Positions 28,680 to 39,668 of a stretch of DNA of 64,000 bases are shown here, piece by piece (within the stretch, counting starts at the first letter, position 1; each line of letters starts with the position of its first letter). Both the position numbers and the translations under genes were made by a program. The notes under the pieces were generated by a model. The model searched no databases and had not been told where the DNA came from. It saw only the letters and a program-made list of their open reading frames with translations. This stretch comes from Acidobacteriota bacterium (GTDB lineage: Bacteria; Acidobacteriota; Blastocatellia; UBA7656). The stretch is taken from NCBI GenBank assembly GCA_038040455.1, contig JBBPIH010000039.1:4998-68997 (forward strand), given 5' to 3'.

Positions 28680-29345
28680 TCAGTCGTTCACCACCCAACC
28701 GTCCCTCAGCTTGATGACCCGGTGCCCGTAAGAGGCATTTACCTCAGAGTGAGTGACCTGAATGATAGTCGTGCCCCCCTCGTTGAGCCTCTTGAACAAC
28801 TCCATGATTTCTTTGCCCTGGTCCGAATGCAGGTTGCCGGTCGGTTCGTCCGCGAGGATCACCTTTGGGTTGGCTATGACCGCCCGCGCGACGCCCACCA
28901 GTTGCTGCTGACCTCCTGATAGCTGAGTCGGATAAAGGTTTCGCTTACCGACAATTTGAAAACGGTCCAGCACGTCGCAGACTGTGCTTTCGCGCTCTGC
29001 TTTCTTAACGTCCCGGTACGACAACGGCACTTCGAGATTCTCGTAGACGGTCATGTGATCGAGCAGATGATAACTCTGAAACACGAAGCCGATGTTCTTA
29101 TTGCGCAACTCCGCTCGCTCCTTCTTGCCGAGCTTGTGGATCGGCTTCTCGAGAAAATCAAACTCGCCGGTCCACGCGCTGTCGTGCATGCCTAGGATGT
29201 GAAGCAGTGTCGACTTGCCCGCGCCCGACGGACCCATTATCGAAACGAACTCTCCCGCTTTGATATCGATGTTAACGCGGCGCAGCACAAACGTCTTGCC
29301 CACGCCCGACTCAAAAAACTTTTCAACGTTGCGTAATGCAATCAT
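28680..29345 (-). CDS. ABC transporter ATP-binding protein (second stand-alone nucleotide-binding domain)
   Basis: It has Walker A (GPSGAGKST), the signature LSGGQQQLVGVARA and Walker B (ILADEPTGNL). Confidence 0.8.
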   Translation of the reverse strand: MIALRNVEKFFESGVGKTFVLRRVNIDIKAGEFVSIMGPSGAGKSTLLHILGMHDSAWTGEFDFLEKPIHKLGKKERAELRNKNIGFVFQSYHLLDHMTVYENLEVPLSYRDVKKAERESTVCDVLDRFQIVGKRNLYPTQLSGGQQQLVGVARAVIANPKVILADEPTGNLHSDQGKEIMELFKRLNEGGTTIIQVTHSEVNASYGHRVIKLRDGWVVND

Positions 29346-29872
29346 AGCTGAACTCCTATGTTTTCAATCATAATGTCGCCGGATCTCTTGGCATTCGAGT
29401 GATGTGATGATACACGAAACAACGCTGCGGCCCAAAGAACTCCAAGCGATTCGAATAGTCATACTAGCCAAGTTCCGTGCCACGGAAGGCCACGGCGATA
29501 AACAGACAAATTGCGCGGCTTAGCGGGTGCCAGAGCGGTGAAGACAGGAGAGCGCTTTCCACTCGTGGGAATCGGTCTCCCACAAGCGGACAGGAAGATC
29601 AGCGGCGGATCGGGTTAGCGGCTGAATCGCACGTGATTGGTCGTTTCTTACCTCTCTTTGAACTCGCCCGCATTGAGCTGCTAGAATAAAACGCTTGATA
29701 GGTTCTGGAACTTCTTCTGAAGAGAATGATAGAACCAAGACTTTGGCTGCGAATCCTCGGGGCACTGGGGTCCTTTGGTTCATCTTCGCGCTGGATGAGC
29801 AACTCGACTCTCCTAGCTTGCGAGATTGCCTTCGATTTACTTGCCCACGGGCCATTGATTCAGAGGTAAGAG

Positions 29873-30199
29873 GTGGCGTACTTAGGCAACAGAAATGGGC
29901 CTCGTGAGTCAAATATCCTAGACCGAATGGGTTTCAGCTATTTTGGCTGCACGCCGGCAGGTCTTGAAGAGGATATTTCTTACCACCGTTTTGCGGAAGC
30001 ACGCGGAGAGGTCGTTCCAGTGCACGTAGATCAAACCGGGCGTGCTTATGTGGAGTTTAGTTCGCCAGAGCAAGGCAAAACTACAAAGTACGTGTTGGAA
30101 GAGCACGGCTATAACCTCAGGGGTAACATCGCGACGTTTTCGGAGGAGGAACGCGCCCATTGGCGAACGCGGGAATCTGCCGAGAATGCGGAACTCTAG
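29873..30199 (+). CDS. hypothetical ORF in a low-coding, lower-GC region
   Basis: It is the only sizeable ORF in 29346..30394. I see no motif. Confidence 0.2.
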   Translation: MAYLGNRNGPRESNILDRMGFSYFGCTPAGLEEDISYHRFAEARGEVVPVHVDQTGRAYVEFSSPEQGKTTKYVLEEHGYNLRGNIATFSEEERAHWRTRESAENAEL

Positions 30200-30394
30200 C
30201 GTTCGTTCGTATAGCGCGATGGATAACGTTCGAGTCTATATTGTTTCGAGCCAATCCTGCCGTAACCGAAGACCAATAGTTCAGACACAATGAGAGAGGG
30301 GCGCGTTCACTCAGGTTCTGCATTCTGATAGCGCAGCGCAATAAGGGGACGCTCCAATAAGCTGCGAGAGCTATGCAATACGATGTTGTTATGA

Positions 30395-31282
30395 TTGCCA
30401 GATCAAGGAGAAGTCTTGATGGTTAATGAAAACCCGACCTCCCGCACAGCCCTACTGTTTGACATCGATAATACGCTTACACCTCCCCGGCAAGTACTGA
30501 GAGAATCAATGGCGAACGTGCTAAAACGCCTTTGCCTTCCGTTTCATGTCGTAGCCGGGAGCCATCTTGATATTCTGCAAGAACAGTTTTTTGATCCGCT
30601 TTACGCATTCGGTTTCCGTAAGCAATTCGAAGCCTTCCTCAGCCTAGGTGGCGTTCATTATCGATGCGACTACTCCAAGGGGATGTCTATTGAGGTGGTA
30701 TCAGCATTTGACATGCGCGAATATCTCGGTGATATCGATTATTGCTTCCTAATGGACGTGCTTACGAAGACCCTTGGTTTTGCGACGTTCCGGCTACCCC
30801 CGACTCTTGAGGTTATCGGTGAAACCATAACTTATCGGGGCTCAATGATCAATTTCTGCCCAATCGGGAGAGCCGAACAAGAAAGCACAGAGTACCGGCG
30901 CAATCGAGATAACTTCGTGGAATTCGATCGTGCGTCTAATTACCGGCAAATCATGATGGAGCATTTAAAAGGCGAATTGTCGTCGCTCGTGAAGGACAGG
31001 AAGCTAACAATAGTGTTGGGCGGTCAGACATCGTTCGATATCAGTGTTGCAACTCGCGATAAGACATACGCGGTTCGAACGCTGCTGGACAGAGGGTTCG
31101 AACGGTTGGTCTTTATGGGCGACGCTTTGTTTGATGGCGGCAATGATGCCGCCATACGTGAATTCGCGGAGAACTGGCGTTCGGAGACCCGATGCCCACT
31201 TGAAACAATCCAGGTGAGCGGCTGGGAAGAGACCATCCGGCGACTCTATGAGCTTCAGTTCGTCGCTGAGCACGGTGATTGA
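30395..31282 (+). CDS. HAD-superfamily hydrolase of the eukaryotic-type phosphomannomutase (PMM, HAD-IIB) family
   Basis: It has motif I (LLFDIDNTLTPPRQ), a motif II region (VVAGSHLDILQEQF, compare PMM VGGSDFEKVQEQL), a K-containing block (GGQTSFDISVATRDKTYAV, compare PMM GGQISFDVFP.GWDK.YCL) and motif IV (MGDALFDGGNDAAI). The true start may be at MVNENP (30419). Confidence 0.5.
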   Translation: MPDQGEVLMVNENPTSRTALLFDIDNTLTPPRQVLRESMANVLKRLCLPFHVVAGSHLDILQEQFFDPLYAFGFRKQFEAFLSLGGVHYRCDYSKGMSIEVVSAFDMREYLGDIDYCFLMDVLTKTLGFATFRLPPTLEVIGETITYRGSMINFCPIGRAEQESTEYRRNRDNFVEFDRASNYRQIMMEHLKGELSSLVKDRKLTIVLGGQTSFDISVATRDKTYAVRTLLDRGFERLVFMGDALFDGGNDAAIREFAENWRSETRCPLETIQVSGWEETIRRLYELQFVAEHGD

Positions 31283-31290
31283 TCACACTG

Positions 31291-32322
31291 CTATTCTTTC
31301 AGGCTTTTTAGCAGATCATCGAACCAACCCTGATCTTTTGTGGACAGGCGGTCCATGTGACGAACGTATTGCGGCAATCTCTGAGGGTCAAGTGTCTCTA
31401 TCCCAAGTACAATCACTCGGCTGCTCCCGGTGTTGATTTGTTCGTGAATCCTGGATTCCAACTCGTGCAAACACCAGGGTGAATTGAGGAAACTCGGACT
31501 CAAACACGCAACGAGGTACTTACTGTTGTTCAGCGCTTGGTGTATCTTGGTAACAACTGGAAGCGTGGGTTTCCTCTGTACCTGATACCTCCACACCGAA
31601 AGCCCCTGGTTTTCAAGTCGGTTGGCAATCTGCAGCACGCGCTTTTGATCATGACCGGAGTGGCACAAGAAAGCATCAAATCGCTCGGGAGAGACAATAC
31701 GCCAGTCGCTAACCGCATTTTGAGTCACTTCCACCTTTACCAAGACCTGAAAGTCTTTGTTCCAAGGAATATTTCGGAGTCGTTCATAAAACTCTTCCTG
31801 ACCTAGAAAGAGATCTACTCCCATCTGACCATAAGCTCTTAGTCCCGCAATCACGAATTCAATCTTCTTATTAACGGTCCTCTTGGAGATTAGACAGTAA
31901 TCTTCTCTGATTCTGTCGTCCTGAAAATCAATCTCATACTTTCTTTTGTTCGCGCCGTGTAATATGCGGATTTCGGGATCTGGATCGAAGTGGATCGGAC
32001 AATTCCTTGTGGCAGCGTTTGCAAACGGGTTTGTAGGAGGGCCACCAATCAACACTCTGTGGCAGTCGGGCAATTTTGGCAGTTTATAGGCGAACGCTAC
32101 TTCTACCTTACCAGGGTACGATCTCTCAAGAAGGGAATAAACTCGCATTGCCGAGTATAGATCATCTGGAAACACGTAGTGGTCGAATAGGGGATAGTTT
32201 GCGCATTGCAAGGTGAAGGTATTTCGTGGCCGCTCCTTCCCGGGGACGAAGATCTTTATCTCCTTAGGACGATGACCAAATCCGAAAAACTCTTTTGCAA
32301 GCTTGTAGACCTCACTGTCCAT
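31291..32322 (-). CDS. two-domain protein with an uncharacterised N-terminal domain (about 210 aa) and a C-terminal TIR domain
   Basis: The TIR motifs are FDAFLCHSGHDQ (the betaA (D/F)xFISY-type motif), LVACLSPSFLNSPWCLHELE (the S..WC..EL alphaC motif containing the conserved catalytic-position Glu) and VIVLGIE. Its stop is 9 nt from the convergent PMM-like gene. Its start is overlapped by 11 nt by the NUDIX gene stop. Confidence 0.7.
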   Translation of the reverse strand: MDSEVYKLAKEFFGFGHRPKEIKIFVPGKERPRNTFTLQCANYPLFDHYVFPDDLYSAMRVYSLLERSYPGKVEVAFAYKLPKLPDCHRVLIGGPPTNPFANAATRNCPIHFDPDPEIRILHGANKRKYEIDFQDDRIREDYCLISKRTVNKKIEFVIAGLRAYGQMGVDLFLGQEEFYERLRNIPWNKDFQVLVKVEVTQNAVSDWRIVSPERFDAFLCHSGHDQKRVLQIANRLENQGLSVWRYQVQRKPTLPVVTKIHQALNNSKYLVACLSPSFLNSPWCLHELESRIHEQINTGSSRVIVLGIETLDPQRLPQYVRHMDRLSTKDQGWFDDLLKSLKE

Positions 32323-32836
32323 TTTGCGAGTCCTTTTTCAGGTATTTGTCCAGACCGGAGAGTACCTCAAGGGTGCTTTTGAATTTAGTGCTTGGCAAAT
32401 CCCGCAAGTCGAACCAACCGTAGTCTAGTATCTCTTCTCCGACATCAATTGCATTGGAGACTAGGCTCGCTTTGTAAAAAAGGTTTAAGCAGAATTCTGC
32501 ATTAGGTCCATAAGTATCCACGGATGCTGTCAGAAGTTCTCCGATCTTAACCTCAGCGTTCAGCTCTTCCTTCATTTCCCTGGTCAGACCACGCTCAGGT
32601 GCCTCTCCGTATAGCAGGAATCCCCCCGGCAGATCCCACGTTGAATGTGAGATCGAATCACAAACCATAAGTACTGTATCTTCTTGAAGAATTACCGCGC
32701 ACACGGACGGCTTTGAATTCAGATACATTACCCTCCCACACTCCTGACATCTAGAGCCCGATTCTTGAAGAAGCTCAGAGATCTGCTTGCTCCCACAGAA
32801 CTGACAAAACCGAGCCTTATTATTCGCATACGGCAT
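32312..32836 (-). CDS. NUDIX hydrolase with N-terminal CxxC-x15-CxxC zinc ribbon (NudC-like architecture)
   Basis: It has a zinc ribbon (CQFCGSKQ...CQECGRVMYLNSKPSVCAVIL) followed by a Nudix box (GGFLLYGEAPERGLTREMKEELN, i.e. Gx5Ex7REUxEExGU). It lacks the SQPWPFPxS motif of bona fide NADH pyrophosphatases. Confidence 0.7.
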   Translation of the reverse strand: MPYANNKARFCQFCGSKQISELLQESGSRCQECGRVMYLNSKPSVCAVILQEDTVLMVCDSISHSTWDLPGGFLLYGEAPERGLTREMKEELNAEVKIGELLTASVDTYGPNAEFCLNLFYKASLVSNAIDVGEEILDYGWFDLRDLPSTKFKSTLEVLSGLDKYLKKDSQNGQ

Positions 32837-32940
32837 AGCAGATCTCCCATCCGAGCCTAAACCGCAGACTTCGTCGTGAAGCCTGGCCCTCCAGCAGGTA
32901 AAGTAGCCTCGCGAACAAGTACAGTGCGCTTGGGGAGCGC

Positions 32941-34101
32941 TTAGATCGTCTCTTCTATGACCTGAGCTATGTAGTCGATCTCTTCTTTGCTAATCCCTGA
33001 ATGTACGGGCAGAGATACGCATGTTCCGGAGAAATACCGAGCGCTATTGACTTCGCCTATAAGCCTAAACGGGAGTTGCCCATACACGGGTTGGTGGTCG
33101 ACACAATATGGCCACATGACCCGGGTTTCAATCCCGTGACGGGAAAGTGTCTCTCTCAAACGCTCGCGATATTGAGACAGAATTGTGAATGTAAAGCCAT
33201 TGGATTTGAAACGACTATCCTTATACGCTTCTAACGCCAGGTTCCTCAGCGCGTCTTTCTCAAGGTAGTAACTTATGACCTGGCGACGATTGCTCAGAAT
33301 CTGTTCCTTGCGGCGAATCTGTGAAATGCCTAAGGACGCAGCAAGGTCAGTCAAGCGATAATTGCCGCCGAAAACATCATAAGAGTATTTCTTTCCAGGT
33401 GTCTCACCGTGATTCCTGATTTGTCTAAGCAGAAGCGCCAGATTCTCGTCGTCCGTAACTATTGCGCCGCCTTCACCAGTAGTCAGAGGTTTGGCCGCAT
33501 GAAAACTAAAGATAGCCGCCTTACCAAACGAGCCAGCCGGAGTGCTGTTAGTGTGCGCGAGGAAAGATGAAGCCGCGTCTATCATCAAGATGATTCCTCT
33601 GTCTTCGCACAGACTGGAGATGTCTGACCAATCATTTGCAAAACCGGAATAGTCTATTCCTATCACAGCTCGCGTGCGCGTTGAGATACAGGGTAATACA
33701 GTTTTAGCATCAATCATTCCAGTGTCTCTGCTTATATCAGCGAGAACCGGGAGTGCACCTGACATCGTTACGGCGAAAGGGACGGCAATGAACGACATCG
33801 CCGGTATTATTATTTCACAAGTGTTCGAAACGCCGAGAGCTATCAACAGACACACTAGAGCCGAAGAACCCGAATTCACAGCCACGCAATATTTCCGATT
33901 AGAGTAGAGTGCGACTAGACGTTCAAACTCCTCAACCTTTGCACCCTGCGAGATCCAGTGTGAGTCAAAACATTCCTTCAATGAATCAGAATCTTCCGAG
34001 CAAATGTCTGGATTTGCCCAACTGACTTTGAGCTTGGCTTTCTCCTTCATCGCATCCCTGATCTGTCTTCGGAATCTAGCAACTTGTTCGCTTCGTGGCA
34101 A
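32941..34101 (-). CDS. DegT/DnrJ/EryC1/StrS-family PLP-dependent sugar aminotransferase
   Basis: It has an N-terminal HWISQG..VEEFE block. The PLP-lysine region is FSFHAAKPLTTGEGGAIVTDD. The start may be at 34050 (MKEKAKL). Confidence 0.75.
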   Translation of the reverse strand: MPRSEQVARFRRQIRDAMKEKAKLKVSWANPDICSEDSDSLKECFDSHWISQGAKVEEFERLVALYSNRKYCVAVNSGSSALVCLLIALGVSNTCEIIIPAMSFIAVPFAVTMSGALPVLADISRDTGMIDAKTVLPCISTRTRAVIGIDYSGFANDWSDISSLCEDRGIILMIDAASSFLAHTNSTPAGSFGKAAIFSFHAAKPLTTGEGGAIVTDDENLALLLRQIRNHGETPGKKYSYDVFGGNYRLTDLAASLGISQIRRKEQILSNRRQVISYYLEKDALRNLALEAYKDSRFKSNGFTFTILSQYRERLRETLSRHGIETRVMWPYCVDHQPVYGQLPFRLIGEVNSARYFSGTCVSLPVHSGISKEEIDYIAQVIEETI

Positions 34102-38366: not shown

Positions 38367-39377
38367 TTATCCCATCGTTAGTACCACCCGCCCGGTGATC
38401 TTTGCGTGGCGCATTTCATCAAACACTTCGTTGACCTGTTCAAGCTGGCGCGTTTCGACCTGGCACTTAACTTTACCGGCGGCGGCGAGATCCAGCACTT
38501 CACGCATATCTTCGCGAGTACCCGTCGCCGTTGACATAATACTGATCTCGCGCATCATGATCGCCGGGAACGACAGATCTTCGGCGGGCATTCCGACGAC
38601 CATTAACGTACCGCTCGATCGCACACCGTAGAATGCCTGGTCGTATGCAGCCTTTGCAGCGGACGTGACTACGGCCACGTGAGCCCCGCCCAGTTTGCGA
38701 AGCTTCTTCACGACCTCGTCGTTGGCGTTCATAGTAATGTCGGCGCCCAGTCGTTTTGCGAATTCTAATTTGTCATCGGCGATGTCGATGGCGATCACTT
38801 GAGCCCCGAAGCATTTCGCGATCTGAACCGCGAGATGTCCGAGCCCGCCAACGCCAAACACCGCTAGACGCTGACCAGGCTTGACGCCGGATTTCTTTAT
38901 CGCGTGGTAAACGGTAACGCCCGCGCAGAACAGCGGCGCCGTTTCTTCTGAAGTTAAGGCGCCGGGCACCTTCAATGCGTGGGAAGCTTTGGCTTTCATA
39001 AACTCCGCATAGCCACCGTCGACCGTTGCTCCGGTGATCATCTGCTTCGAGCAAAGATTTTCGTGACCTTCTTTGCAGAGCTCGCACTCGCCGCACGTCC
39101 AATGGGTCCAGGCGATGCCCACGCGATCGCCGACGTTGAGGTTGCTCACCACCTCGCCCTTCTGAATTACGCGGCCAACTACTTCGTGGCCAGGAATGAG
39201 CGGGCGCTTGATGATTCTGAGCAGATGGGTCCAGTCGCCTTCGGCAATGTGCAGGTCAGAGTGGCATACGCCGCAAGCTTCGACTTTGATCAGCACCTCA
39301 TCGGGGCCCGGCGTCGGAGTTTCGGTGTCTTCGATTTTGAGAGGCTGTTTGTAGTCACGGACTATGGCTGCTTTCAT
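38367..39377 (-). CDS. zinc-dependent alcohol dehydrogenase (MDR family)
   Basis: It has the CGVCHSDLH catalytic-zinc motif, GHEVVGRV, the structural-zinc Cys cluster and the GVGGLGHLAVQ Rossmann motif. The ATG at 39375-39377 has a ggaga RBS. The longer track ORF reads through the 39447 palindrome and is rejected. Confidence 0.8.
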   Translation of the reverse strand: MKAAIVRDYKQPLKIEDTETPTPGPDEVLIKVEACGVCHSDLHIAEGDWTHLLRIIKRPLIPGHEVVGRVIQKGEVVSNLNVGDRVGIAWTHWTCGECELCKEGHENLCSKQMITGATVDGGYAEFMKAKASHALKVPGALTSEETAPLFCAGVTVYHAIKKSGVKPGQRLAVFGVGGLGHLAVQIAKCFGAQVIAIDIADDKLEFAKRLGADITMNANDEVVKKLRKLGGAHVAVVTSAAKAAYDQAFYGVRSSGTLMVVGMPAEDLSFPAIMMREISIMSTATGTREDMREVLDLAAAGKVKCQVETRQLEQVNEVFDEMRHAKITGRVVLTMG

Positions 39378-39446
39378 TTTTTCTCCATGGGCAAACGCGC
39401 GCATGCTACTACGTCGAGAGGTGAAACGTGAAGAGTGATGAGTTAA

Positions 39447-39600
<154 letters not shown>

Positions 39601-39668
39601 GCGTCACACTCACGCATAACGCCCTGCTCCCTTCGAGGCGAGTCAGGTGTCGTGTAGAATGACTTCGA

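What the first reader, a model, noticed from the sequence alone, without database searches (positions are those of the whole stretch)
31291..32322. TIR domain at the C-terminus of a protein whose 210-aa N-terminal domain matches nothing I can recognise
Residues 214-343 show the betaA motif FDAFLCHSGHD, the alphaC motif SPWCLHELE with the catalytic-position Glu, and the VIVLGIE strand. Residues 1-213 (..KIFVPGKERP..HRVLIGGPPTNPF..EFVIAGLRAYGQMGVD..) lack the motifs of the common TIR partners SAVED, STING, SIR2, Macro, SLOG/LOG and NB-ARC. Bacterial immune TIRs are usually N-terminal or stand-alone, so a C-terminal TIR after a novel putative sensor domain is an unusual architecture. The N-terminal domain is probably the ligand or phage-sensing module.
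Basis: seen in the sequence. Interest (0 to 1): 0.75.

Follow-up and report, generated by a model that had tools for sequence, protein, structure and literature searches.

The report
New sensor-like domain fused to TIR
A soil Acidobacteriota gene joins an uncatalogued 210-residue domain to a TIR (NAD-cleaving type) domain, and this domain always sits beside the same rare aminotransferase, Nudix and phosphatase genes while its fused partner domain changes, so it looks like an undescribed metabolite-linked system rather than a lone immune protein.

Summary
Window 31291-32322 (-) encodes a 343-aa protein with a C-terminal TIR domain (Pfam TIR_2, E=4.5e-20). The catalytic-position Glu (E287, WCLHE) is kept in 20/20 TIR-bearing relatives. 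Residues 1-210 ("X") match no Pfam, NCBIfam, PADLOC or PDB sequence family.

The new result is genomic. X is better conserved than the TIR (44% vs 27% pairwise identity). In relatives it is also fused to a PNP nucleosidase, an NDT/TIR-like domain, a metallophosphoesterase or a P-loop ATPase-like domain, or anchored by a TM helix.

In all 18 close loci examined, X lies next to a rare, co-distributed set of genes: a perosamine-synthase-like DegT aminotransferase, a Zn-ribbon Nudix, an IMPase or HAD phosphatase and a phosphosugar mutase.

Best reading (about 0.45): X binds a nucleotide-sugar-like metabolite handled by the cassette and controls an interchangeable nucleotide-cleaving output. A purely metabolic role is the main rival. 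No published description was found.

The parts
31291..32322 (-). X-TIR gene (343 aa; NCBI MEK6323998.1, annotated only as a TIR domain-containing protein)
31693..32322 (-). Domain X (residues 1-210): uncatalogued flavodoxin-like alpha/beta domain
32029..32046 (-). GGPPTN loop (residues 93-98), invariant G93/P95/T97/N98, between strand 88-92 and helix 99-105. Inferred phosphate- or ligand-binding loop.
   Evidence: This is the same motif (ILVGGPxxN) that gives the only weak PDB sequence hit, to the S-layer anchoring domain.
31825..31845 (-). GLRAYGQ motif (residues 160-166), invariant in all 15 aligned homologues, at the strand-to-helix junction
31294..31680 (-). TIR domain (residues 215-343)
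   Evidence: Pfam TIR_2 E=4.5e-20; PDB TIR hits
31462..31464 (-). Codon of E287, the catalytic-position Glu of the WxxxE motif (WCLHE 283-287)
   Evidence: conserved 20/20
32312..32836 (-). Zn-ribbon Nudix hydrolase (174 aa). Its stop overlaps the X-TIR start by 11 nt. It belongs to a rare subfamily that co-distributes with X.
   Evidence: Pfam NUDIX E=2.1e-16. NudC model 39 bits, below the 158 cut-off. Only 18 clusters at E<=1e-20, several on the same contigs as X proteins. Orthologue next to X in most loci.
32941..34101 (-). DegT/DnrJ/EryC1 aminotransferase. The likely true start is the ATG at 34050, which gives the 369-aa NCBI call.
   Evidence: Pfam E=4.2e-84. Closest solved structure is GDP-perosamine synthase 3bn1, E=1.4e-50. 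28 clusters at E<=1e-90, 49-66% identical, several on X contigs.
30395..31282 (+). HAD-IIB phosphomannomutase-like gene, convergent with X-TIR (an 8-nt gap between the two stops)
   Evidence: Pfam PMM E=5.8e-21. PDB PMM hits at E=8e-21. An orthologue is in the same convergent position in L001, L010 and L015.

Best explanation
Proposal. The gene encodes the output component of a small, previously undescribed metabolite-linked cassette.

Domain X is a cytosolic ligand-binding domain with a flavodoxin-like fold. Gly-rich and polar loops (GGPxTN and GLRAYGQ) sit at the C-terminal ends of its strands. I propose that X recognises a phosphorylated sugar- or nucleotide-type small molecule made and turned over by the neighbouring enzymes.

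Those enzymes would act as follows:
- a phosphosugar mutase and, in some loci, a nucleotidyltransferase and an oxidoreductase build the molecule;
- a perosamine-synthase-like DegT aminotransferase aminates it;
- a Zn-ribbon Nudix and an IMPase or HAD phosphatase break it down.

Ligand occupancy of X would then switch the fused C-terminal TIR domain, most likely an NAD+ glycohydrolase that works through E287. In relatives the same X domain drives other outputs instead: a PNP nucleosidase, an NDT/TIR-like domain, a metallophosphoesterase, a P-loop ATPase-like domain, or a membrane anchor.

What is shown: the domain composition, the conservation pattern, the domain swapping and the gene linkage.

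What is inferred: ligand binding by X, the chemical class of the ligand, NADase activity of the TIR, the direction of control, and whether the biological role is defence or toxicity, or regulation.
For: 1. X is the constant module and TIR the variable one. Mean pairwise identity is 44% for X and 27% for TIR among 10 full-length proteins.

2. A profile of X finds 280 representative proteins, 28 of them at E<1e-30. Their architectures are X-TIR, X-Metallophos, X-AAA-like, PNP_UDP_1-X, NDT/CAP12-TIR-like-X, X with basic tails, N-terminal TM helix + X, and wHTH-TM-X.

3. A swap occurs with the rest held constant. L004 (X-TIR) and L013 (X-P-loop) share the gene order PGM-DegT-IMPase-Nudix-X. The enzymes are 47-61% identical and X is 50% identical, but the C-terminal domains differ. 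L001 (X-TIR) and L010 (PNP-X plus a ROK-like gene) occupy the same chromosomal site, with PMM 78% and Fpg 71% identical.

4. Gene linkage is consistent. All 18 distinct close loci examined have DegT and/or Nudix and/or IMPase directly adjacent. This includes the PNP-X, X-Metallophos, X-AAA and NDT-X loci.

5. The Nudix and DegT subfamilies are about as rare as X: 18 and 28 clusters respectively, against 16 for X, in 5.8 billion proteins. Several lie on the same contigs as X proteins.

6. The 26 invariant residues include R33, D53/D54, T97/N98, D141/Y142, R162, Y164 and Q166. They fall mainly in loops that follow predicted beta-strands. This is the canonical ligand site of Rossmann-like and flavodoxin-like folds (established structural knowledge).

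7. The TIR catalytic-position Glu is conserved 20/20.

8. The Nudix and X-TIR genes overlap by 11 nt.
Against: - No ligand, no binding and no enzymatic activity were tested.
- X-only proteins exist in cassettes (L020/P0011, P0027). X may therefore have an activity of its own rather than only regulating a fused domain.
- The many invariant polar residues are equally compatible with catalysis.
- TIR, PNP and NDT-like domains are all N-glycosidases. Their interchange could reflect a required catalytic step rather than interchangeable effectors.
- No locus shows known defence genes in its flanks. Three loci share the same housekeeping neighbours, and X is absent from phage, plasmid and viral collections. 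This does not look like a typical mobile defence island.
- The closest PDB sequence matches of the TIR are scaffold-type TLR TIRs that carry the same Glu.
- The window cassette itself lacks an oxidoreductase and a nucleotidyltransferase, so the pathway is incomplete as read here.
Confidence: 0.45

Rival explanations
1. Purely metabolic enzyme. The cassette makes or breaks down an amino-sugar or amino-nucleoside compound, such as a 3'-amino-3'-deoxynucleoside or a kanosamine/perosamine-type sugar. The domain fused to X supplies an N-glycosidic-bond-cleaving or ribosyl-transfer step (TIR, PNP or NDT-like), or a phosphoester-cleaving step. X acts as the substrate-binding domain or as a second catalytic domain.
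For: TIR, PNP_UDP_1 and NDT-like domains are three unrelated folds with the same chemistry. The mutase step is filled by three analogous families: PGM_PMM, HAD-type PMM, and the Metalloenzyme/phosphopentomutase-like family; weak ROK-like and GHMP-like kinase neighbours also occur. This pattern is typical of non-orthologous displacement within a real pathway. The DegT + Nudix + IMPase trio, plus GFO_IDH_MocA in L026, equals the enzyme classes Pur4/Pur7/Pur3/Pur10 that build the 3'-amino-3'-deoxynucleoside core of puromycin, A201A, cystocin and ADG (PMC11641026, PMC9239236). The flanks are housekeeping genes and the position is syntenic in related genomes. X-only proteins occur in cassettes.
Against: Cassettes with identical enzyme sets carry a P-loop ATPase-like domain, a metallophosphoesterase or no fused domain in place of the N-glycosidase, so the N-glycosidase is not an obligatory step. 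TIR domains are not known as biosynthetic enzymes, and no paper describing one was found. The TIR is much less conserved than X and the cassette enzymes, which is unusual for a fixed pathway step. No transporter or resistance gene of the kind seen in the ADG and puromycin clusters is present. The cassette proteins were not compared directly in sequence with the Pur or Adg proteins.
Confidence: 0.3
2. Regulator or scaffold of a cell-envelope glycan pathway. X is a glycan- or nucleotide-sugar-binding accessory domain related to S-layer anchoring and BcsB domains. The TIR acts as a protein-protein interaction domain, as in TLR signalling, and not as an enzyme.
For: The best structural matches of X are accessory domains of glycan-handling proteins: BcsB, the N-terminal domains of GH67, GH115 and GH84, and an S-layer cell-wall anchoring domain. 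Distant X relatives hit Pfam S_layer_C. The DegT is closest to GDP-perosamine synthase, and PMM and a GMPP-like nucleotidyltransferase are present in the nearest relatives. The closest PDB sequence matches of the TIR are TLR TIRs.
Against: No glycosyltransferase, flippase or polymerase genes occur in any of the close loci. The protein has no signal peptide or TM segment. Replacement of the TIR by PNP, metallophosphoesterase and NDT-like enzymatic domains argues for an enzymatic output. The Glu is invariant in 20/20 proteins although the TIRs are only about 27% identical.
Confidence: 0.1
3. Stand-alone abortive-infection TIR protein. X senses a phage component directly, and the neighbouring sugar and nucleotide genes are functionally unrelated.
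For: The TIR matches models of single-gene and ThsB-type defence proteins at the domain level (PDC-S66 E=5.5e-12, ThsB models). The block has low GC. The family is rare and patchily distributed.
Against: The X gene is next to cassette genes in 18/18 close loci, across proteins as little as 30% identical and with different gene orders. It overlaps the Nudix gene by 11 nt. The Nudix and DegT subfamilies are as rare as X and lie on the same contigs. Chance adjacency cannot explain this.
Confidence: 0.05
4. The Nudix and X-TIR form a toxin-antidote pair. The TIR makes a toxic or signalling NAD-derived product (ADPR or a cADPR isomer) and the coupled Nudix hydrolyses it. The DegT, phosphatase and mutase then recycle the ribose-phosphate products.
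For: The two genes are translationally coupled. The Nudix is annotated by one source as an ADP-ribose pyrophosphatase and weakly resembles NAD/ADPR pyrophosphatases with a Zn ribbon. Phosphatase and phosphopentomutase-like genes could process ribose phosphates.
Against: The same Nudix subfamily accompanies X proteins that have no TIR (PNP-X in L010, X-P-loop in L013), so it tracks X and not the TIR. One X-TIR locus (L006) has no Nudix. This reading gives the aminotransferase no role, although it is the best conserved cassette gene.
Confidence: 0.1

Closest known systems
Bacterial TIR-domain sensor-effector proteins of anti-phage systems (TIR-SAVED/Cap, TIR-STING, ThsB, retron RT-TIR, Cat1 CARF-TIR)
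   Same: It is a TIR_2-type domain with the WxxxE catalytic-position Glu, fused to a non-TIR module in one polypeptide. A C-terminal TIR also occurs in RT-TIR and in several ThsB models.
   Different: The partner domain is none of SAVED, STING, CARF, RT or SLOG. No CD-NTase, ThsA, retron ncRNA/RT or CRISPR genes are nearby. The partners are instead a DegT aminotransferase, a Nudix and a phosphatase/mutase, and none of the known TIR systems I compared has these. Scores against the specific family models are far below their cut-offs.
Archaeal S-layer cell-wall anchoring domain (PDB 9fsa; Pfam S_layer_C PF05124) and the flavodoxin-like domains of BcsB
   Different: Sequence identity is 5-16%. The window protein itself has no S_layer_C hit even at E<=10. 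X is cytosolic (no signal peptide or TM segment) and fused to enzymatic domains, whereas the known examples are extracytoplasmic structural domains.
3'-amino-3'-deoxynucleoside core module of the puromycin, A201A, cystocin and ADG clusters (Pur10 dehydrogenase, Pur4 aminotransferase, Pur7 Nudix, Pur3 monophosphatase)
   Same: The enzyme classes co-occur in one small operon: aminotransferase + Nudix + monophosphatase. My recollection is that Pur3 resembles IMPases. A GFO_IDH_MocA oxidoreductase is present in one related locus.
   Different: The window cassette has no dehydrogenase and carries a HAD-type PMM-like protein instead of an IMPase. Most loci add phosphosugar mutases, and some add a nucleotidyltransferase, which have no role in the Pur pathway. 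No direct sequence comparison with Pur or Adg proteins was possible here. None of the Pur-type clusters described in the papers read carries an X, TIR or PNP gene.
GDP-perosamine / NDP-amino-sugar biosynthesis (PMM, mannose-1-P guanylyltransferase, GDP-mannose 4,6-dehydratase, Per)
   Same: The DegT is closest to perosamine synthase structures (E=1.4e-50). The PMM-like gene is adjacent. A GMPP-like NTP_transferase lies upstream in L001 and L015, and SDR epimerase/dehydratase genes occur in four related loci.
   Different: No dehydratase or nucleotidyltransferase lies next to the window cassette. No glycosyltransferases are present. A dedicated Nudix, a phosphatase and an X-effector gene are not part of known perosamine operons.

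Membership tests
TIR domain superfamily (Pfam PF13676 TIR_2 / PF01582 TIR) | Score above the Pfam gathering threshold | tested here: met
   TIR_2 72.8 bits vs 28; TIR 37.9 bits vs 21.3
Enzymatic (NADase) TIR domains | Catalytic Glu at the start of helix alphaC (WxxxE), conserved in homologues | tested here: met
   E287 in WCLHE; Glu present in 20/20 TIR-bearing relatives. The same motif also occurs in non-enzymatic TLR1/2 TIRs, so it is not sufficient.
Enzymatic (NADase) TIR domains | NAD+ cleavage activity | not testable with these tools
   Needs a biochemical assay
Thoeris ThsB | Match to ThsB_TIR above threshold, and an adjacent ThsA (SIR2 or Macro plus SLOG) | tested here: not met
   PF08937 15.3 bits, below 21.2. 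The neighbours are Nudix, DegT and PMM-like; there is no SIR2, Macro or SLOG.
Retron-associated RT-TIR (NF042941) | Reverse transcriptase domain plus TIR; score of at least 600 | tested here: not met
   48.7 bits over the TIR part only; no RT domain; no Rfam retron RNA
CBASS/Pycsar TIR effectors (TIR-SAVED, CAP12/PCTIR) | SAVED or another cyclic-nucleotide sensor, and a CD-NTase or cyclase operon | tested here: not met
SLOG/LOG, STING, CARF, Macro, SIR2, NB-ARC as identity of domain X | Sequence or fold match | tested here: not met
S_layer_C (PF05124) / S-layer anchoring domain as identity of domain X | Significant profile match of the window protein | tested here: inconclusive
NudC NAD(H) pyrophosphatase (for the neighbouring Nudix) | NF001299 score of at least 158; SQPWPFPxS motif downstream of the Nudix box | tested here: not met
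   39 bits. The motif is absent from the translated sequence. The Zn-ribbon and the Nudix box REx2EE are present.
Puromycin-type aminonucleoside core module | NAD-dependent NTP dehydrogenase + DegT-type aminotransferase + Nudix + IMPase-type monophosphatase together | tested here: inconclusive
   Window: an aminotransferase and a Nudix are present, but there is no dehydrogenase and no IMPase. Related loci: IMPase in most, GFO_IDH_MocA in L026, SDR in L012. Orthology to the Pur proteins was not tested.
GDP-perosamine synthase (for the neighbouring DegT) | Equivalog-level match, and an adjacent GDP-mannose 4,6-dehydratase | tested here: inconclusive
   The closest PDB sequence is perosamine synthase, E=1.4e-50. 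All NCBIfam equivalogs are below cut-off, for example PseC 227 vs 423.5. No dehydratase is in the window cassette.

The most novel reading that the evidence does not exclude
The cassette is a new kind of metabolite-gated immune or suicide switch. The operon both synthesises (mutase, nucleotidyltransferase, oxidoreductase, DegT) and continuously destroys (dedicated Nudix plus phosphatase) an unusual NDP-amino-sugar-like or amino-nucleotide molecule. Domain X reads the level of that molecule. When the level changes, for example after phage-induced host shut-off or hijacking of nucleotide-sugar pools, X releases an interchangeable toxic output: a TIR NADase, a PNP nucleosidase, an NDT-like domain, a metallophosphoesterase, a P-loop ATPase or a membrane anchor. 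This would add a sugar-nucleotide-type second messenger, or small-molecule antitoxin, and a new sensor fold to bacterial immunity.
Probability: 0.15. Interest if true: 0.9.

Novelty: new variant of a known kind. Interest (0 to 1): 0.66.

Why it matters
TIR domains are central to immunity in bacteria, plants and animals. The known bacterial TIR systems are defined by what sits next to the TIR, such as SAVED, STING, ThsA, RT or CARF.

Here the TIR is attached to a domain that no family library recognises. That domain behaves like a shuffled sensor module and is tied to a rare aminotransferase/Nudix/phosphatase cassette.

If the cassette product is the ligand of X, this defines a new small-molecule class and a new sensor fold that control NAD- and nucleotide-degrading effectors.

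If the TIR is instead a pathway enzyme, it would be, as far as I know, the first TIR used as a biosynthetic or catabolic N-glycosidase.

Either outcome is testable with about five genes. The family is small, with a few dozen sequence clusters, mostly from soil and sediment metagenomes and from Acidobacteriota where named. It has therefore escaped systematic defence-system screens.

Tried and rejected
- Known partner domains for X: Pfam, NCBIfam and PADLOC scans gave nothing for residues 1-213, and neither did scans of all 15 X sequences.
- PDB sequence search with a profile of X: only an E=1.3 hit.
- Mobile-element origin: there is no X in phage or plasmid records (only TIR-level hits) and none in viral contigs. 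No tRNA, flanking repeats or Rfam elements occur at the low-GC island.
- Genome-wide species survey: only one locus was found in the GTDB representatives, so taxonomic breadth could not be established.
- Thoeris, CBASS, retron and NudC identities were rejected on score and context (see the membership table).
- Literature searches for a TIR + Nudix + DegT system, or for a TIR in a biosynthetic cluster, found no description. One search was rejected for a syntax reason.
- Context of the distant TM-X and NDT-X relatives: one contig was too short and one was uninformative. One lies beside a type I restriction-modification system and sugar-modifying genes. The cassette link is therefore shown only for the close subfamily (E below about 1e-20).
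Full report
**1. The observation**

The minus-strand ORF 31291..32322 encodes 343 aa. Its ATG at 32322 is preceded by an AAGGA-type ribosome-binding site and lies 11 nt inside the end of the upstream Nudix gene, so the two genes are probably translationally coupled.

Pfam places a TIR_2 domain at residues 218-324 (E=4.5e-20, 72.8 bits against a cut-off of 28) and a TIR domain at 215-310. PDB TIR chains match from E=1.2e-13.

The quoted motifs are present. The catalytic-position Glu is E287, in WCLHE at 283-287.

Residues 1-213 match nothing in Pfam, NCBIfam or PADLOC at E<=1. The PADLOC and NCBIfam hits (PDC-S66, ThsB models, RT-TIR, retron-TIR) cover only the TIR. In several of those models the TIR is C-terminal.

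The protein is MEK6323998.1 from an Acidobacteriota MAG. It is annotated only as a TIR-domain protein.

**2. The N-terminal domain (X)**

A search of 5.8 billion proteins found only 16 clusters. The named ones are from Acidobacteriota and Pyrinomonadaceae.

In the alignment, X is the better conserved half. It has 26 invariant positions, including P27, R33, Y43-P44, D53-D54, G93/P95/T97/N98, D141-Y142 and G160-L-R-A-Y-G-Q166. Mean pairwise identity is 44% for X and 27% for the TIR.

AlphaFold2 models X alone with pLDDT 91.4 and pTM 0.88. The full-length model has pLDDT 82.9. X is an alpha/beta domain, and the GGPxTN and GLRAYGQ motifs sit at strand-to-helix junctions.

SAVED, SLOG/LOG, STING, CARF and Macro do not appear. 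Foldseek agrees and finds nothing at E<=0.001.

The only PDB sequence hit of the X profile is the same S-layer domain (E=1.3), through an ILVGGPxxN motif. Distant X relatives reach Pfam S_layer_C over the same region, but the window protein does not.

X is therefore an uncatalogued family, probably a remote cytosolic relative of a flavodoxin-like accessory domain seen in glycan-handling and S-layer proteins.

**3. X is a shuffled module**

A profile search of 1.84 billion representatives found 280 proteins, 28 of them at E<1e-30. X occurs in these architectures:
- before a TIR;
- before a calcineurin-like metallophosphoesterase (P0026, P0029);
- before a P-loop AAA-like domain (P0018);
- after a PNP_UDP_1 nucleoside phosphorylase/nucleosidase domain (P0036-P0052);
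- after an NDT/CAP12-TIR-like domain (P0044, P0067, P0071);
- with short basic tails;
- alone;
- in more distant members, after a single N-terminal TM helix or a wHTH-TM segment.

In the three TM-X sequences I inspected, basic residues follow the TM helix. By the positive-inside rule this suggests that X stays cytosolic. This is an inference.

The catalytic-position Glu is present in all 20 TIR-bearing members.

**4. The conserved cassette**

This is the main new finding.

In the window the gene order is DegT aminotransferase (32941-34101), Zn-ribbon Nudix (32312-32836) and X-TIR, all on the minus strand. A convergent HAD-IIB PMM-like gene lies at 30395-31282. The block sits in a low-GC stretch, about 0.49 against about 0.56.

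The loci came from gene look-ups and a metagenome scan, mapped with phmmer. In all 18 distinct close loci the X gene is directly next to orthologues of the DegT and/or the Nudix and/or an IMPase-family phosphatase. Other frequent neighbours are:
- a phosphosugar mutase of one of three analogous families (PGM_PMM, HAD PMM, or the Metalloenzyme/phosphopentomutase-like family);
- sometimes a GMPP-like nucleotidyltransferase;
- an SDR epimerase/dehydratase;
- a GFO_IDH_MocA oxidoreductase;
- a GNAT acetyltransferase;
- weak ROK-like or GHMP-like kinases.

This holds for the PNP-X, X-metallophosphoesterase, X-P-loop and NDT-X loci as well.

The cassette Nudix and DegT subfamilies are about as rare as X. 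There are 18 clusters at E<=1e-20 and 28 clusters at E<=1e-90 respectively, and several lie on the very contigs that carry X proteins.

Two natural swap experiments are informative:
- L004 and L013 have the same gene order, PGM-DegT-IMPase-Nudix-X. The enzymes are 47-61% identical and X is 50% identical. One ends in a TIR and the other in a P-loop domain.
- L001 and L010 occupy the same chromosomal site (PMM 78% and Fpg 71% identical). One has X-TIR and the other has PNP-X plus a ROK-like gene.

**5. What the neighbours resemble**

The DegT is closest to GDP-perosamine synthase structures (E=1.4e-50), followed by scyllo-inosose and other sugar aminotransferases. It is below every NCBIfam equivalog cut-off.

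The Nudix has an N-terminal Zn ribbon like NudC, but it fails the NudC model (39 bits against 158).

The PMM-like protein matches eukaryote-type phosphomannomutases.

Two known pathway types fit in part:
- NDP-amino-sugar synthesis (mutase, nucleotidyltransferase, dehydratase or oxidoreductase, aminotransferase, with the Nudix and phosphatase as hydrolytic steps). This accounts for the most genes.
- The 3'-amino-3'-deoxynucleoside core module Pur10/Pur4/Pur7/Pur3 (dehydrogenase, aminotransferase, Nudix, monophosphatase) of puromycin, A201A, cystocin and ADG (PMC11641026, PMC9239236). This matches the DegT/Nudix/IMPase trio but not the mutases.

Neither could be tested for orthology here.

**6. 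Interpretation**

The constant X, the interchangeable fused domain and the fixed cassette argue for one reading. X reads, or handles, a small phosphorylated sugar- or nucleotide-type molecule belonging to the cassette. The fused domain is an output, which here is a TIR that probably cleaves NAD+.

The N-glycosidase is not obligatory, because P-loop, metallophosphoesterase and X-only versions occur in otherwise identical cassettes. I therefore favour a sensor-output model (0.45) over a fixed catalytic step (0.3).

Several facts weaken a classical defence-island reading:
- the flanks are housekeeping genes;
- related genomes are syntenic at this site;
- no known defence neighbours were seen;
- X is absent from phage, plasmid and viral collections.

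X-only proteins and the dense set of invariant polar residues keep a catalytic role for X open.

The TIR's closest solved sequence relatives are scaffold-type TLR TIRs with the same WCxxEL motif, so NADase activity is likely but unproven.

**7. Novelty**

No Pfam (2025), NCBIfam (2026) or PADLOC model covers X. Four literature searches found no description of a TIR/PNP + DegT + Nudix cassette.

The TIR itself is ordinary. The partner domain and the cassette are new. I rate the finding as a new variant of a known kind (a TIR sensor-effector), with a modest chance that it is a categorically new metabolite-gated system.

Noticed in passing
window 30000-34100: The cassette lies in a lower-GC stretch (0.48-0.50 against about 0.55-0.61 on both sides), which suggests horizontal acquisition. 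No tRNA, flanking direct repeats, integrase or Rfam element marks its borders.
   Followed up: partly
window 29346-30394: About 1 kb between the ABC ATPase gene (28680-29345) and the PMM-like gene has no convincing gene. The only candidate is a 108-aa ORF (29873-30199, +) with no Pfam, PADLOC or NCBIfam hit. It could be a promoter/regulatory region or a degraded gene at the edge of the island.
   Followed up: partly
L010:1217-4137 (compare L001:8001-9077): At the same chromosomal site (between the cassette Nudix and the convergent PMM-Fpg pair), a related genome carries a PNP_UDP_1-X fusion plus a 481-aa weakly ROK/ASKHA-like protein instead of X-TIR. This is a natural effector swap.
   Followed up: partly
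L020:621-1484 (P0011): This is a close relative of the X-TIR protein P0008, but the TIR is missing. X is followed by about 45 unrelated residues and then directly by a Metalloenzyme-family mutase gene. Either the TIR was lost by deletion or frameshift, or this is a genuine X-only form.
   Followed up: partly
L026:306-8426 (P0044): The most complete cassette seen: HTH regulator, NDT-like-X and IMPase, then on the other strand DegT, GFO_IDH_MocA oxidoreductase, GNAT acetyltransferase, Metalloenzyme-type mutase and PGM_PMM. It reads as a full oxidise-aminate-acetylate sugar-phosphate pathway.
   Followed up: no
L033:1051-7532 (P0067): A distant NDT/TIR-like-X protein sits between a hexapeptide acyltransferase and a family-2 glycosyltransferase, immediately upstream of type I restriction-modification genes (HsdM, HsdS). 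This is the only X locus seen next to a known defence system.
   Followed up: no
P0062, P0087, P0091, P0118 and many others: A large group of proteins of about 240-270 aa consists of one N-terminal TM helix followed by a distant X domain. Another group (about 400-450 aa) has a wHTH-like N-terminus, a TM helix and then X. Their function and context are unknown; one contig was too short and one was uninformative.
   Followed up: partly
P0032, P0145: These two X-containing proteins have N-terminal regions with motifs that resemble class III nucleotidyl cyclases by eye (ILIVDIVGHSQL, FIVLVDLSGST). Pfam found nothing significant in P0032, and P0145 was not scanned.
   Followed up: no
window 32941-34101 and 30395-31282: The mechanical ORF starts (TTG) are probably too far upstream. 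The NCBI DegT call is 369 aa, with its start at the ATG near 34050. The exact 295-aa PMM-like translation is not in the protein collection.
   Followed up: partly
window 38367-39617 (-): A zinc-type alcohol dehydrogenase ORF carries an odd, roughly 80-residue N-terminal extension rich in F/H/P/S (FHFPFSIFHYFSF...). This is probably an over-extended start across a low-complexity intergenic region.
   Followed up: no
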